A stretch of 64,000 nt of DNA, taken from the NCBI RefSeq assembly GCF_009914755.1, contig NC_060931.1, one strand, 5' to 3'. The translations under genes were made by a program, and so were the position numbers. The notes under the pieces are model-generated. The model made no database searches. It was not told the DNA's origin and worked only from the letters and a program-made list of their open reading frames with translations. Origin of the DNA: the human T2T-CHM13v2.0 reference genome, Homo sapiens. Shown here in pieces: positions 37,031-50,293 of the stretch (position 1 is the stretch's first letter; each line of letters starts with the position of its first letter).

Positions 37031-40365
<3,335 letters not shown>

Positions 40366-41478
40366 ATAAACTGATGTTTAATTGTGCTTTTCTTTTCTTT
40401 TTACAATGAACTTTTGTGAAGTCTTAGTATGTCTGATCTCTTAAATATTTTAAAAACTTGCATCTTTGTATGAGATGAATAAACCATTACAGTTCACAGT
40501 ATCTGCAAATTGTAAATCAAATAATTCAGACATGGAATAGCCAAAAATAGTAGGAATATAAGTAAATTAGTTTATAGTTTTTCTAAGGAAATTCAAACTG
40601 ATAACTAACACCTGACTTTGTGAAGTATTAGACTGTGTGCTAATGCCTTTAACTAGGGTAGTCTTTACAGCATACCTATGAAGAATGTATATATTTCTCT
40701 CCTCATAGATGAGAAAACAGCACAGAAAGGTAACTCACTAAGAGCCTACCTCTTGAATTTGAATTTTGATCCCTGACACAGAGATCAGATTTGAATTTCC
40801 ATCTCTGACCCCACACTTTGAGCTCTTAGCTCCTGAGTTTCTCCTGAGGTAGCAATGATATTATTTCTCTGTGGGGTTAGTGCTGCCTCTTACAAAGGAT
40901 CAGGTTCCACTTTGTTCCCAGGGAAGTGAAAGGACATGAGCAAGGTGACCCTGGGCTCTTCACAGGTTGTGCTGAGCCCTTGGGGCCTTGAGGGAGGTGT
41001 TTGATGGGGTGTTTGATCCCACAGAAAAACTGGTAGAGTTTGCAGACCTATAGACAGAAGGTCAAGAGATCACCTCCCAGGTGCTGGGGCCGGGGGGAAG
41101 GCTGAGACAGTAAGTGTCTCTGTTGACCTACATCCTGAATCTGTCCCCAGGCCCAGTGAATAGGAACTGAGGAGAGCTGTTGGCATTGGGCCTTTGGGTT
41201 ATGTGTGTTGATGGAAGGCGGCCACAGGGCATCTGTGTTATAGCTGTGGGGGTCAGAAAGTGCATCCCGAAGACAAAAGTTGTGGAAAGCAGGGAGCCTG
41301 AATGCTGAGAGAAACCCACCGTTTGGGAACAGACAGAGACCCCACTGTCCAGGAGGAAGCAGGCTCAGCCAGCCTATGGTAGACTTGCCTTGCCTGCAGA
41401 GAGCAGTTCTCTGTGGCCACAGATGCATCCTGGACTTAGGGGAGCAGTGAGGTAACCCTGTACCTTCTTTGTCTTTAG

Positions 41479-41670
41479 TCATGGGACATTTTTTTTCGCA
41501 ACACGAATGCCGGAGCCCCACCGGGCACTGCCTACCAGAGTCCCCTTCCCCTGAGCCGAGGCTCCCTGGCTGCTGTGGCCCATGCACAGTCCCTGGTAGA
41601 AGCACAGCCCAACGTGGACAAGCTCGTGGAGGACCACCTGGCAGTGCAGTCGCTCATCAGGGCATATCAG
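41479..41670 (+). CDS. OGDH: OGDH exon 3 (aa 75-138: [16 protein letters not shown]...[12 protein letters not shown])
   Basis: Acceptor TTCTTTGTCTTTAG, donor CAG|GTAAGG, 192 nt, phase 0-0. It continues the exon 2 frame (KSVHK|SWDIFF) and contains the conserved LIRAYQ. Confidence 0.98.
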
Positions 41671-43119
41671 GTAAGGCGGGTGCTTTACCCGCACACGGGA
41701 AAGGGTGCAGTGTTCCTTAGGTCATGCCTCATGGGCCCTATTGGCCTTTCTGAGTGTATGTTGTCACTTTACTTATACCTCCTCAAATACTAGGTGCTTT
41801 CTCCCTGCTTTGGGAGGCTAAAAAACAAATACACAAGAAAAAGAACCAGGCTAGCCCTATTTGAGCAAATCTCCCAGCACCACTAATGCCTGCCTTATAA
41901 AAGGGATCCTTATTTCCTTTCCTTCCTTGGCAAGAAATATTTGTGGGCAGGGAAAACAAGTCAGTACCCGGGCATCAAGGAGAAGTGCTGCCCATCTGCC
42001 AGTGAGCAGTGACTGGGAGGGGTGGTGCTTTTGGGTGGTTGATGCCCCCTTCTCAGTTGCTAACAACTGAATACTATAAGAGAAGAAAACCATACTATAG
42101 AGTTTGGGGATGTGGAGGCAGGGAGAGGCAGCTGAGGGTACAGCTGAGCCTACAGAGAGTGATGAGGGGCAGGGGAACTCTCCAAAAGTATTGCAGTTAG
42201 TGGCCAGTCTCGTTAGGCACGTGTTGAGCAGGACAAGGTTTTTCCCCCCATCCTTTCCCAGAGCACAATAACCAAAGTTTTTCTAGGATGTCCACCTGAT
42301 ACATGGGGAGAGCCTAGAGTTCAGATCTTAAGACTTCATCTGTGATAGTTCTAAGGACGACAGGTAGAGACAAGTGAGCCTGGTGCTTCCCTTCTGGAAG
42401 CTCCCATGGGCATCCAGGACCCTGCCACCTGTTCTTGTGTAACTGCTTTGGTGGCAACAAGGGGACTCATGTCCCTGGGCTGTCTTTTCTCTCATGCTTT
42501 GGTTTCTGGTGGCATGGGCCATGGGCAGGTGTTGTAATGGGGCAACATAGGGGAGGTCCTGGGTCTCTGGCCCTTCATGCCATGGCCTGGCAAGTAAGGC
42601 TCTCTCCCTGGGGCAAGTGTATTCTGCCTTAGAAAGGAGATGCATGGAGTTTTGTAAATGCTATATGCTTTAAAGTGTTATCCATGTGGATATTTGCATA
42701 AGGAGGAAGCCCAGTGGTGTTTCTTTATCACTGCCTGCACGCAGTTGGCCTCAGTAACAACTTCAGCCTGATCTTGCAGTGACTTACCAGCAGCTGCTCC
42801 CTTCTCAAATTGCTAGCAAGAAGTTGTGAAAGAATCTTAAATTGGAAGGGATTTTCTTTCTCCTTTTGGTTTTTAAATAGTTCAAATCAGATGCTTTAAG
42901 TCTGTGGTGTAGCAGGGTTTTTTTGTTCTGACTACTGTGTGCTGACCTACTCAGCAGCAGCAGGACCAGAGCCCTCACTCCTCACGGGGATATATAATAA
43001 AGGCAAACCTTCTCTTAGTGAGATGACCTCTTATCTGCACTCCTCCCCAGTTAAGGCCAACACTTAAGCCTTCATTTTCCTACTTAGAAAAATTTTTCTT
43101 TAAATTTGATTTATTTTAA

Positions 43120-43237
43120 ATTGAGGTGGGATCTCACTGTGTTGCCCAGGTTGGCCTCAAACTCCTAGGCTCAAGAGATCCTCCTACCTCAGCCTCCCAA
43201 GTAGCTGGAACTACAGGCATGTGCCACTGTACCCAGC
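43120..43237 (-). mobile_element. Antisense Alu monomer (FLAM-like)
   Basis: Alu consensus match. Confidence 0.8.
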
Positions 43238-43595
43238 ACCTTAGGGAAATGTTTATGTTCTGAGCTGAGGCAGGCTTCACATTGGAGTAAGAATTGCCCA
43301 GCATATCTCATTTCTGTTTATCCATGGAAACTGTATAAAGATCACAAGAAATGGATCCTTTCAGACTCCTAAGTTTATCATAACCTGAGTTTATCTCTTT
43401 TTTATAAAAGTACATTTATGCACAATAGTGCTTTTAAAATAAGTTATTCCAAGACTTTTAAAAACTAATTTTGTCGTATGGGTTTATTGGTGCTGTGTTC
43501 CTCTTTGGAAAAGGTTTGCATAACCTGTGACTCTTTTAACCCTCCCCACAGCTCACTGGATCTGCTTAATGACTTGCTTGTGTTATTGCTTCCAG

Positions 43596-43686
43596 GTCAG
43601 GGGTCACCACATTGCAAAACTTGATCCTCTCGGAATTAGTTGTGTAAATTTTGATGATGCTCCAGTAACTGTTTCTTCAAACGTGG
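43596..43686 (+). CDS. OGDH: OGDH alternative exon 4a (VRGHHIAKLDPLGISCVNFDDAPVTVSSNV), mutually exclusive with 4b
   Basis: Acceptor TTGCTTCCAG, donor TGG|GTGAGA, 91 nt, phase 0-1. It is paralogous to 4b (RGHH.A.LDPLGI) and is missing from the ORF track. Confidence 0.93.
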
Positions 43687-43808
43687 GTGAGAATTAAGCT
43701 GTAAATGCTAATTTTAATGTAATTTTACTTTTTTTTTACCCCTTCCCTCTTTTTTTTTCTTCTGTCCTTTTGTGTGTGTCCTTCCCTCTCATCGTTGGCC
43801 ACTCATAG

Positions 43809-43911
43809 ATACGAGGGCACCATGTAGCACAGCTGGACCCCCTGGGGATTTTGGATGCTGATCTGGACTCCTCCGTGCCCGCTGACATTATCTCATCCAC
43901 AGACAAACTTG
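43809..43911 (+). CDS. OGDH: OGDH exon 4b ([34 protein letters not shown]), containing the DADLD Ca2+ site
   Basis: Acceptor CACTCATAG after a long pyrimidine tract, donor TTG|GTGAGG, 103 nt, phase 0-1. Carries the conserved E1o motif RGH..A.LDPLG. Confidence 0.97.
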
Positions 43912-45142
43912 GTGAGGGTCTGAGAGCAGTCAGCTGCGTTGCTTGAGCTCCTCTCGCTGTGCCACGACCTGTGGTAGCCAGGATGTCCAGGCAGGAGGGA
44001 AAGGCTCTTAAGTTTCCTTTCATTCTGATCACTTGAAATTTATCGGTATTGTAGCCTTAGTGTGTTTTGGGCAAGTTATTTTTATCTTACTTTTTCAGCC
44101 AGATTGTCTTAAGTCTCAAAATTTGAAAATAAAATTTTGGACAGAAAGGTTTGTGGCACAGGGAAAAAGCTTGTCCACCTGGGGCAGGTGGATCAGAAGC
44201 ACTTCAGAGTATAGCTCTTTTGGCTTCAGGTTTTCAAATGTCAGTGCAGCACTGCCTTCAGTGAGGCATGTCCATGAGGCCTTGCTCAGGAACTGCTGAC
44301 ACAGCCATCCTTTTCTGAAGCCCAGTGTGGCCTGCCCTTGACTGGAGGCCATGTCCCTTAGGGGACGAATTCTAGAGCAAGTTGTGCAGTTGGGTCTCCT
44401 GATTTGTAATTGCTGGTGATCACACTGAGGAAACTTTGGAAGGCATTCCCACAGCGTCAGGAGGTCAGGGCCTTTGGGAGGTGCATGTATGGAGCACACT
44501 GGGGTTTTGTCACGGTTGCCAGAAGATAGTCCCACCTACACCCCCTCCTCCTCATGAAGTGAGGTGGGTGTTGTGGCTGGGCTCTCACCTGCAGTTGCTT
44601 TGCAGAGTTAGTCTGCTTTATGTCACTGTGCTGCTAACCTGTACTAAAGAAATGATGATGTGACTAATTTTTAAATGGCCAGGGTGTTCACAATAGACAC
44701 TGTGCATGCTGATGAAATTGATGATCACTTACTTGCCTAATACTCCTCTTGGGATGGGTACGAAATTAGCCTCCTCACAGGCACTTTTGGGGAATGGTAC
44801 AGACAGTCTCTAAGGCTCTGCAGTGCCTGGATATCTTTATAGGCATTACTAAGTTATGTCTAGGGGATGAGGCATTAATCATCAAACATCATTGACTTTG
44901 GAATTGGCATTGATGGTTTGTAATTGTTTTTTTAATACCAGCCCTTTAGCGGATTTAGGAAGGGAGTTTAGAGAAATCCTCTTGAATTTTATTGATTAAG
45001 GCCAGTTCAGATGGTAGACTGGGCATGAGTTGAACCCTGCTTTTTCATTCCGTGGTGACAACTTTGTGCTCCCAAGAAGAGGGCCTCTCTTTGCAGTGTC
45101 CCCGGAGGTCTTGGAGCCTCTTCCCTACTGCTCACCCCTTAG

Positions 45143-50293
<5,151 letters not shown>

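What the first reader, a model, noticed from the sequence alone, without database searches (positions are those of the whole stretch)
41479..43911. Predicted exon 3 + 4b circular RNA (295 nt) contains a 198-codon rolling-circle ORF that crosses the back-splice junction twice
Seen in sequence: exon 3 (192 nt) plus exon 4b (103 nt) is 295 nt, or 3n+1, so each lap shifts the frame. An ATG at 43855 reads [19 protein letters not shown] (19 codons) to the 4b donor. It then back-splices into the canonical OGDH frame for 98 aa (SWDIFF...DADLD...TDKL). A second crossing gives V and the stop-free alternative frame of exon 3 ([10 protein letters not shown]...HQGIS), then [17 protein letters not shown], ending at TGA 43859-43861. 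The total is 597 nt (2 x 295 + 7), or 198 aa. The product would lack the mitochondrial presequence, keep the DADLD Ca2+ motif and gain a Pro/Cys/Gly-rich tail. Established (from memory): an exon 3-4 circOGDH has been reported, mainly as a miRNA sponge or biomarker. Inference: it could also be a template for a protein; I do not know whether this has been described. Caveats: the Kozak context is weak (TTTTGGATGC), and an in-frame start-stop (ACCATGTAG at 43819-43827) sits just upstream.
Basis: partly seen in the sequence, partly recalled or inferred. Interest (0 to 1): 0.8.

Follow-up and report, generated by a model that had tools for sequence, protein, structure and literature searches.

The report
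Chance reading frame on known circOGDH
The 198-codon reading frame is really there on a well-known 295-base circular RNA from the OGDH gene, but frames this long arise by chance in about one in ten such circles, and nothing found here shows that a protein is made from it.

Summary
Exon 3 (192 nt) plus exon 4b (103 nt) gives a 295-nt (3n+1) circle. ATG 43855 opens a 198-codon frame that crosses the back-splice junction twice and stops at TGA 43859.

The circle is already published as hsa_circ_0003340/circOGDH: 295 nt, same 2433-nt genomic span. The mouse homologue mmu_circ_0000231 is also 295 bp.

The frame is not unusual:
- 10.4% of 5000 synonymous permutations reach 198 codons.
- 10.4% of 925 equal-length pseudo-circles cut from OGDH's own coding sequence reach 198 codons.
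- 7 of 71 hypothetical OGDH exon circles carry frames of two laps or more.

The start has a weak context, follows a strong-context start-stop, and depends, like the stop, on synonymous T's in the codons GAT-GCT-GAT.

The non-OGDH frame shows no sign of constraint. It is 61% identical in the one other mammal recovered. A published mouse primer implies a TAA inside it.

Evidence for translation is one polysome junction read and no junction peptide. I found no paper reporting a circOGDH-encoded protein.

Best reading: a by-product frame on a known non-coding circle. A functional protein is possible but unlikely (about 3-4%).

The parts
41479..41670 (+). OGDH exon 3 (192 nt), first part of the circle. 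It is the acceptor side of the back-splice junction.
   Evidence: AG at 41477-41478, GT at 41671-41672. Hub annotation agrees. My spliced rebuild of the CDS gives the same bounds.
43809..43911 (+). OGDH exon 4b (103 nt), second part of the circle. Its donor at 43911 back-splices to 41479.
   Evidence: The span 41479-43911 is 2433 nt, equal to the hg19 span of hsa_circ_0003340 and of the two-exon OGDH circle in Yang 2017 Tables S2 and S3.
43855..43857 (+). ATG that opens the 198-codon frame. Context is weak: T at -3, C at +4.
   Evidence: It is formed by the AT of the Asp codon GAT and the G of the Ala codon GCT in the DADLD stretch, so it depends on a synonymous T.
43859..43861 (+). TGA that ends both the 198-codon and the 80-codon frame. 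It lies one base after the start codon (ATGCTGA).
   Evidence: It is formed by the T of GCT (Ala) and the GA of GAT (Asp), again a synonymous T.
41481..41483 (+). ATG with a strong context (G at -3, G at +4). It opens an 80-codon frame identical to the last lap of the 198-codon frame.
   Evidence: The same context and the same 80 aa occur in the linear mRNA. The junction plus this ATG are identical in the mouse siRNA sense strand.
43822..43827 (+). Start-stop (ATG TAG) with A at -3, 30 nt upstream of ATG 43855 and in the same frame.
   Evidence: It is identical in the mouse forward primer.
41483..41488 (+). GGGACA, the reported m6A site 'A8' of CircOGDH. The A is at 41486, 5 nt after ATG 41481.
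   Evidence: The motif and position match PMC12750160 passages. DRACH scan.
43864..43869 (+). TGGACT, the reported m6A site 'A251'. The A is at 43867, 12 nt after ATG 43855.
   Evidence: PMC12750160 passages. DRACH scan.
43596..43686 (+). Alternative exon 4a (91 nt), which must be skipped for the 295-nt circle. If it is included (386 nt), the frame from ATG 43855 shrinks to 130 aa.
   Evidence: Hub annotation. AG/GT sites. ORF computation.
38882..39087 (.). Upstream arm of an inverted repeat in intron 2. It pairs with 45407-45612 in intron 4 (206 nt, 86% complementary). It is a candidate promoter of back-splicing.
   Evidence: I4. Further cross-exon pairs appear in the same call, for example 40078-40212 with 47866-47996.
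45407..45612 (.). Downstream arm of that inverted repeat, in intron 4.
   Evidence: I4.

Best explanation
Exon 3 and exon 4b of OGDH are back-spliced (donor 43911 to acceptor 41479) into the published 295-nt circle hsa_circ_0003340/circOGDH. Back-splicing is probably helped by inverted Alu-like repeats in introns 2 and 4. The 198-codon frame on the circle is a by-product of building a 3n+1 circle from GC-rich coding exons. One lap (98 codons) is open because it is OGDH's own frame. The 19-codon lead-in and the 81-codon tail are chance-open stretches of the other two frames. Start and stop are both created by synonymous T's in GAT-GCT-GAT. The circle acts, as reported, as a non-coding RNA: a miRNA sponge, an IGF2BP1/FUS-bound cargo of stress granules and vesicles. 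It is not a template for a functional protein. Shown here: the anatomy, the identity with the published circle, and the chance level of the frame. Inferred: lack of selection on the alternative frames, and absence of meaningful translation.
For: - Identity with the known circle: same 2433-nt span and 295-nt length. The flanking introns in Yang 2017 Table S2 (20761 and 18976 nt in hg19) are close to 20755 and 18960 nt in the window. The reported m6A motifs sit exactly at circle positions 8 and 251.
- Chance level: 10.4% of 5000 synonymous permutations reach 198 codons. 10.4% of 925 pseudo-circles from the OGDH CDS do so. 7 of 71 hypothetical non-3n exon circles, and 3 of 12 two-exon ones, have frames of at least 2 laps. 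54 of 71 have at least 1 lap. In the linear mRNA the same ATG 43855 opens a 126-codon out-of-frame ORF, so long off-frame ORFs are routine in this gene.
- Poor initiation prospects: ATG 43855 has T at -3 and C at +4, and follows a start-stop with A at -3 by 30 nt. Its surroundings are less accessible than the circle average (0.27 against 0.41 unpaired). The circle is no more structured than shuffles (z +1.31, 200 shuffles). No Rfam family, IRES or other, matches the exons (5 weak hits, all in intron 3).
- No constraint on the alternative frame: the only relative of the 63-aa exon-3 alternative frame in 5.8 billion proteins (P0121) is 38/62 identical, against 77-100% for the canonical frame in the 120 orthologue hits listed. 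22 of its 25 differences are explained by a change at the canonical third codon position alone. Exon 3 has 9 sites where a synonymous change to T would make a stop in this frame. A published mouse primer shows CCT at one of them, and rat and two other murid orthologues keep Pro-Asn there, which implies TAA in mouse. The OGDHL paralogous exon has stops in both alternative frames.
- No product seen: 0 of 120 OGDH-like proteins contain a 6-mer of the alternative frames. 'OGDH' is absent from Yang 2017 Table S4 (junction peptides) and from the 4 supplementary files of Fan 2022. Searches for a circOGDH-encoded protein found only reviews, or nothing.
Against: - The circle is cytoplasmic in mouse brown adipocytes.
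- It carries experimentally supported m6A (MeRIP in hypoxic SH-SY5Y cells). The two sites lie 5 and 12 nt downstream of the only two ATGs that open long frames. This is the arrangement that Yang 2017 link to m6A-driven circRNA translation (legend passage).
- One back-splice read of this circle appears in the RNase R-treated polysome fraction of 293 cells, in 1 of 3 replicates.
- The frame is at about the 90th percentile of the nulls, not the median.
- The alternative frame is open through exon 3 in at least one other mammal (P0121).
- Absence from two peptide lists is weak evidence, because such lists are short (19 unique peptides in Yang 2017).
- I could not consult TransCirc, riboCIRC, circAtlas or any Ribo-seq or MS raw data. 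Paper reading closed before further supplements could be searched.
Confidence: 0.85

Rival explanations
1. The circle is translated sporadically and at low level, as 'pervasive' cap-independent translation. This yields mainly the 80-aa alternative-frame peptide from the strong-context ATG 41481 and occasionally the 198-aa product. These are unstable, unselected products that matter at most as a source of non-canonical peptides.
For: - The circle is cytoplasmic.
- m6A motifs lie next to both ATGs.
- There is 1 polysome junction read.
- ATG 41481 has G at -3 and G at +4, and is conserved with the junction in mouse.
- The tail is 57% Pro/Gly/Ser/Ala/Arg with 7 Cys, typical of unselected GC-rich off-frame sequence.
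Against: - A single read in one replicate is at noise level.
- There were 0 m6A-IP junction reads against 7 input reads in 293 cells.
- Under hypoxia the circle is reported to go to stress granules and vesicles, which are translationally silent compartments.
- No junction peptide was found.
- Sceptical large-scale studies exist: PMC6487579, bioRxiv 10.1101/2020.12.10.418848 and PMC8906552 (search listing and abstract starts only).
Confidence: 0.11
2. The 198-aa protein is a real, functional circRNA-encoded protein: a cytosolic OGDH fragment (residues 75-172, with DADLD) that carries new N- and C-terminal extensions.
For: - The frame exists and crosses the junction twice.
- The circle has the same length in human and mouse.
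- m6A is reported on it.
- Multi-round frames that gain a new tail are discussed for other circles, such as circ-E-Cad (search listing only).
Against: - The frame is a 10% chance event.
- It has the weakest start on the circle, behind a start-stop.
- Start and stop hinge on synonymous T's.
- A mouse TAA is implied in the tail, which would cut the tail by 37 residues.
- The alternative frame is 61% identical in P0121, with 22 of 25 changes at canonical third positions.
- Pfam finds no domain in the pieces.
- Only residues from LVEAQ onward are part of a solved OGDH construct (8i0k), so the 98-aa piece is not a known autonomous domain.
- No paper was found.
Confidence: 0.03

Closest known systems
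hsa_circ_0003340 (circOGDH / circ-OGDH), with its mouse homologue mmu_circ_0000231
   Same: Same back-splice (exon 4b donor to exon 3 acceptor), same 2433-nt genomic span, same 295-nt spliced length. The reported m6A motifs sit at circle positions 8 and 251. The mouse junction 19-mer is identical to the human one.
   Different: Nothing differs in the RNA. The published roles are non-coding: miR-615-5p, miR-940, miR-874-3p and miR-34a-5p sponging, IGF2BP1 and FUS binding, stress granules, vesicles. None of the papers I could search describes the reading frame or a product.
Multi-round circRNA reading frames that change frame on a later lap and gain a new tail (circ-E-Cad giving C-E-Cad), and 'infinite' frames (circ-EGFR)
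   Same: The circle length is not a multiple of 3, the frame is longer than the circle, and a later lap reads a different frame and gives a unique C-terminus.
   Different: Those cases are reported with protein detection. I recall this from memory and saw only search listings of reviews that use the terms. Here no product is known, the start is weak and the tail is not conserved.
m6A-driven circRNA translation (Yang et al. 2017, PMC5520850)
   Same: RRACH/DRACH motifs lie close to the candidate start codons. The OGDH circle is listed among their 250 'ribosome associated' circles.
   Different: The listing rests on 1 junction read. Their m6A-IP gave 0 junction reads for it against 7 in the input. 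It is not among their junction peptides.
Coding-exon circles that carry ORFs but show no evidence of translation (for example the 'AUG circRNAs' of Stagsted et al. 2019, PMC6487579)
   Same: An abundant, conserved exonic circle with a long ORF inherited from the host gene and no evidence of translation (abstract start).
   Different: circOGDH lacks the host gene's own AUG, which lies in exon 2. Its frame starts at an out-of-frame internal ATG.

Membership tests
hsa_circ_0003340 (circOGDH) | Back-splice joining the 3' end of OGDH exon 4b to the 5' end of exon 3 (hg19 chr7:44684925-44687358) | tested here: met
   The window span 41479-43911 is 2433 nt, equal to the published span. The flanking intron lengths agree within 6 and 16 nt. 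A direct coordinate lift-over was not possible.
hsa_circ_0003340 (circOGDH) | Spliced length 295 nt (two exons, exon 4a skipped) | tested here: met
   192 + 103 = 295. 295 bp/nt is stated, and exon_no 2. Whether the full internal structure was sequenced, rather than assumed from annotation, was not visible in the passages I read.
hsa_circ_0003340 (circOGDH) | Reported m6A motifs GGGACA (A8) and TGGACT (A251) | tested here: met
   The DRACH scan of the circle gives A8 and A251 among 8 sites. The motifs are quoted.
Translated circRNA (circRNA-encoded protein) | AUG-initiated ORF that spans the back-splice junction | tested here: met
   198 codons, two crossings. However, about 10% of null circles do as well.
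Translated circRNA (circRNA-encoded protein) | A cap-independent initiation element (IRES or m6A) shown to drive translation | tested here: inconclusive
   m6A is reported in hypoxic SH-SY5Y cells, but there were 0 m6A-IP junction reads in 293 cells. No Rfam IRES match. No excess structure (z +1.31). No translation reporter was described in the passages read.
Translated circRNA (circRNA-encoded protein) | Ribosome or polysome association of the junction | tested here: inconclusive
   1 junction read in R1_RNAseR only, in Yang 2017 Table S3. No Ribo-seq data were available.
Translated circRNA (circRNA-encoded protein) | Junction-spanning peptide or antibody-detected product | tested here: not met
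   'OGDH' and the coordinates are absent from Yang 2017 Table S4 and from all 4 supplementary files of Fan 2022. This covers only these two data sets. Raw MS data were not searchable.
Translated circRNA (circRNA-encoded protein) | Conservation of the ORF under purifying selection | tested here: inconclusive
   No orthologous DNA was available. Indirect evidence points against. The mouse primer shows CCT before a conserved Asn, which implies TAA. The P0121 alternative frame is 61% identical, with 22 of 25 changes at canonical third positions.
Multi-round frame-shifting circRNA ORF (circ-E-Cad type) | Circle length not divisible by 3, ORF longer than one lap, new tail from a later lap | tested here: met
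   295 = 3n+1, 2.01 laps, 81-aa non-OGDH tail. This is a formal resemblance only.
Multi-round frame-shifting circRNA ORF (circ-E-Cad type) | Protein product demonstrated | not testable with these tools
   Needs bench work or raw proteomics.

The most novel reading that the evidence does not exclude
Under hypoxia, m6A at A8 and A251 recruits ribosomes to circOGDH, and a primate-lineage protein is made. This would be either the 198-aa two-lap product or the 80-aa alternative-frame product from the strong ATG 41481. The stop (TGA 43859) lies one base after the start (ATG 43855, ATGCTGA), so a terminating ribosome could re-initiate on the spot and cycle round the circle. That would add a coding role to a stroke-penumbra biomarker RNA.
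Probability: 0.04. Interest if true: 0.55.

Novelty: already known. Interest (0 to 1): 0.15.

Why it matters
circOGDH is being pursued as a stroke-penumbra biomarker and an siRNA target, and as an oncogenic sponge in oesophageal cancer. If it also encoded a protein, knock-down phenotypes would need re-reading. The present evidence says the frame is the kind that any 3n+1 circle of coding exons has about one time in ten. It gives no reason to re-interpret the published non-coding roles. The case is a useful calibration: a two-lap ORF on an exonic circle is not evidence of coding by itself.

Tried and rejected
- Dinucleotide shuffling as the null (0.56% reach 198 codons). I rejected it as the relevant control because it destroys the obligatory open OGDH frame. 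Synonymous permutation and real-CDS pseudo-circles were used instead.
- Orthologue DNA. No mammalian genome other than the window's own is held, so the three-frame conservation test could not be run. I used published mouse oligos, orthologue proteins and an alternative-frame protein hit as indirect substitutes.
- Alternative-frame peptide against 5.8 billion proteins at near length: no candidate.
- Pfam on the canonical and alternative-frame pieces: nothing above threshold. A fourth piece of 19 aa was too short.
- PDB by sequence: only 8i0k_A, covering the exon-3 peptide from residue 39 on.
- Rfam over 41300-44100: no hit in the exons.
- RNA fold of the closed circle: no excess stability.
- OGDHL paralogue: stops in both alternative frames, but at only 50% protein identity this says little.
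- Earlier-findings tool: not open.
- Supplements of CICADA (PMC11724281), riboCIRC and the immunopeptidomics paper could not be searched because paper reading closed. They may list this circle.
- Structure prediction of the 198-aa product was not attempted, because a joined sequence is not the window's own contiguous translation.
- Chance that both long-frame ATGs have a DRACH within 15 nt: roughly 0.17 from 8 sites in 295 nt (my arithmetic). The adjacency is therefore not significant.
Full report
**Observation**

Exon 3 (41479-41670, 192 nt) and exon 4b (43809-43911, 103 nt) have canonical AG/GT sites and sum to 295 nt, which is 3n+1. On the closed circle there are five stop codons. None is in the OGDH frame, three are at offset 1 (41552, 41597, 43825) and two at offset 2 (43859, 43883). 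There are five ATGs.

Only two ATGs open long frames:
- ATG 43855 opens 198 codons over 2.01 laps, crosses the junction twice and ends at TGA 43859.
- ATG 41481 opens 80 codons, identical to the last lap of the longer frame.

This covers the 19 + 98 + tail layout, the weak context TTTTGGATGC and the upstream start-stop at 43822-43827.

**What the circle is**

It is the published hsa_circ_0003340 (circ-OGDH). PMC8039021 places it at chr7:44684925-44687358 (hg19) with a length of 295 bp (passages). That span of 2433 nt equals the window span.

Yang et al. 2017 (PMC5520850, Tables S2 and S3) list the same coordinates as a two-exon circle. Its flanking introns are 20761 and 18976 nt, against 20755 and 18960 nt here.

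[quoted passage not shown] My scan finds DRACH adenosines at exactly positions 8 and 251 of the circle.

The mouse homologue mmu_circ_0000231 comes from Ogdh exons 3-4. It is 295 bp, RNase R-resistant, has a Sanger-confirmed junction and is cytoplasmic (PMC9372764 passages). Its published junction siRNA 19-mer and forward primer match the human circle with 0 mismatches. The reverse primer has 3 mismatches.

Inverted Alu-like repeats flank the exon pair. Examples are 38882-39087 with 45407-45612 (206 nt, 86%) and 40078-40212 with 47866-47996. This is the usual arrangement that favours back-splicing. That step is inferred, not shown.

**Is the frame more than chance?**

No. The canonical lap must be open. 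The question is whether an ATG happens to sit after the last stop of the preceding frame, and whether the following frame runs on.

| Null | Result |
|---|---|
| Synonymous-codon permutation keeping the OGDH peptide and its codon usage (5000) | 10.4% reach 198 codons; 22% reach 150 |
| Codon-aligned 295-nt pseudo-circles from the rebuilt OGDH CDS (925) | 10.4% reach 198 codons; median 128; maximum 228 |
| Hypothetical circles of consecutive internal exons, up to 900 nt, length not a multiple of 3 (71) | 7 have frames of at least 2 laps; 54 have at least 1 lap |
| Two-exon circles among those (12) | 3 reach 2 laps (exons 3-4, 5-6, 12-13) |
| Dinucleotide shuffle (5000) | 0.56% reach 198 codons, but this destroys the OGDH frame and is not the right control |

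The OGDH CDS was rebuilt from the window plus five fetched stretches. It has 22 coding exons and 3072 nt, with one mismatch to orthologue P0012.

In the linear mRNA, ATG 43855 opens a 126-codon out-of-frame ORF. Long off-frame ORFs are therefore normal in this 59% GC sequence.

**Start, stop and initiation**

Both ends of the frame lie in the codons GAT-GCT-GAT of the DADLD motif. The ATG needs the synonymous T of the first GAT. The TGA needs the synonymous T of GCT.

ATG 43855 has T at -3 and C at +4. It follows an ATG-TAG start-stop with A at -3 by 30 nt. By contrast, ATG 41481 has G at -3 and G at +4, and has the same context in the linear mRNA.

The closed circle folds to -88.1 kcal/mol, no better than 200 shuffles (z +1.31). 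The 23 nt around ATG 43855 are less accessible (0.27 unpaired) than the circle average of 0.41. Rfam finds nothing in the exons. Its five weak hits lie in intron 3 and are Alu-related.

The two reported m6A sites lie 5 and 12 nt after the two long-frame ATGs. This fits the m6A-initiation idea of Yang 2017 (legend passage). But with 8 DRACH sites in 295 nt, the coincidence is expected about one time in six.

**Conservation**

No orthologous DNA is held, so the decisive test could not be run. Four indirect lines point against selection on the non-OGDH frames.

1. Exon 3 has 9 sites where a synonymous change to T in OGDH creates a stop at offset 2. The mouse reverse primer shows the Pro codon of '...EAQP' as CCT. 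The next residue is Asn in 100 of 120 listed orthologues, including rat and two other murids. Mouse should therefore read T-AA at that point. That would cut the tail by 37 residues, giving about 161 aa if the mouse start exists.
2. The 63-aa exon-3 alternative frame finds no protein of similar length and one longer protein. This is P0121, an unnamed 154-aa ORF on a 1178-nt contig that runs into both introns. Identity is 38/62, against 77-100% for the canonical frame among the listed orthologues. Of 25 differences in 63 codons, 22 are explained by a change at the canonical third position alone. The alternative frame changes wherever OGDH drifts synonymously. P0121 does show the frame open in one more mammal, but only open frames can be found this way.
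3. None of the 120 OGDH-like proteins contains a 6-mer of either alternative frame.
4. The OGDHL paralogous exon has stops in both alternative frames. This is weak evidence, given 50% identity.

**Evidence on translation**

Yang 2017 Table S3 ('ribosome associated circRNA', 250 circles) lists the circle with 1 junction read, in the RNase R sample of replicate 1 only. Table S2 gives 7 junction reads in RNase R input and none in the m6A-IP.

'OGDH' and the coordinates are absent from their peptide table S4 and from the 4 supplementary files of Fan et al. 2022 (PMC9242994).

The full-text searches gave the following:
- 'circOGDH' is held by 95 papers.
- 'circOGDH' with 'open reading frame' is held by 11, judging from titles and abstract starts nearly all reviews.
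- 'circ-OGDH' with 'encoded' and 'IRES' is held by 5, all reviews.
- Names such as OGDH-198aa or circOGDH-encoded are held by 0.

The library covers only Creative Commons PubMed Central and bioRxiv. The original Circ Res 2022 paper was seen only as a citation. Paper reading closed, so other supplements (CICADA, riboCIRC, immunopeptidomics) were not checked.

The published biology places the circle in stress granules and vesicles under hypoxia, bound by IGF2BP1 and FUS. Sceptical surveys of circRNA translation exist, but I saw only their listings and abstract starts.

**The product, if made**

It would be 20.8 kDa with pI 6.1. It would consist of a 19-aa off-frame head, OGDH residues 75-172, and an 81-aa tail that is 57% Pro/Gly/Ser/Ala/Arg with 7 Cys.

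Pfam sees no domain in the pieces. The only solved chain that matches the exon-3 peptide (8i0k_A) begins at LVEAQ, which is residue 39 of that peptide.

The frame depends on skipping exon 4a. With 4a included, the circle is 386 nt and the frame falls to 130 aa.

**Verdict**

The circle is already known. The frame is an ordinary by-product. I put 0.85 on 'non-coding circle with a chance frame', about 0.11 on sporadic, unselected translation (more likely from ATG 41481), and about 0.03 on a functional 198-aa protein.

Noticed in passing
window 41479-41670: A circle of exon 3 alone (192 nt, a multiple of 3) would carry an endless ORF from ATG 41481, because the offset-2 frame of exon 3 has no stop and the junction codon is not a stop. 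I know of no evidence that such a circle exists.
   Followed up: partly
window 43853-43861: The start and stop of the 198-codon frame overlap as ATGCTGA inside the DADLD codons GAT-GCT-GAT. A terminating ribosome would sit one base past the start codon. This is formally like termination-reinitiation overlaps, but it is forced by the arithmetic (597 = 2 x 295 + 7).
   Followed up: no
PMC12245079, primer table: The two primers listed there for 'CircOGDH (hsa_circ_0003340)' do not match the window at up to 3 mismatches. Against the doubled circle the best fit is 9 mismatches in 20-21 nt. The table entry seems to belong to another gene.
   Followed up: partly
window 43121-43237, minus strand (intron 3): There is a sub-threshold Metazoa_SRP match (63.4 bits, gathering score 70), plus mir-1285-like and mir-1268-like hits. 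This is an Alu fragment inside the intron that is removed from the circle.
   Followed up: no
outside the window (hg19 chr7:44739739-44741214); mouse chr11:6311008-6317080: Yang 2017 Table S3 lists a second two-exon OGDH circle near the 3' part of the gene. In mouse brown fat a longer Ogdh circle, mmu_circ_0000230, shares the end coordinate 6317080 with mmu_circ_0000231 and is also up-regulated.
   Followed up: no
window 43596-43686 and 43809-43911: Exons 4a (91 nt) and 4b (103 nt) behave as mutually exclusive. Orthologue isoforms carry either the 4b peptide or a 4a-type peptide (VRGHHIAKLDPLGISCVNF...) with protein lengths 1023 and 1019.
   Followed up: partly
proteins P0018-P0036: Many short 'lgn' hits are gene-caller ORFs on mammalian genomic contigs that read exon 3 straight into both flanking introns. 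They are not real isoforms. They are useful as windows on orthologous sequence but should not be counted as proteins.
   Followed up: partly
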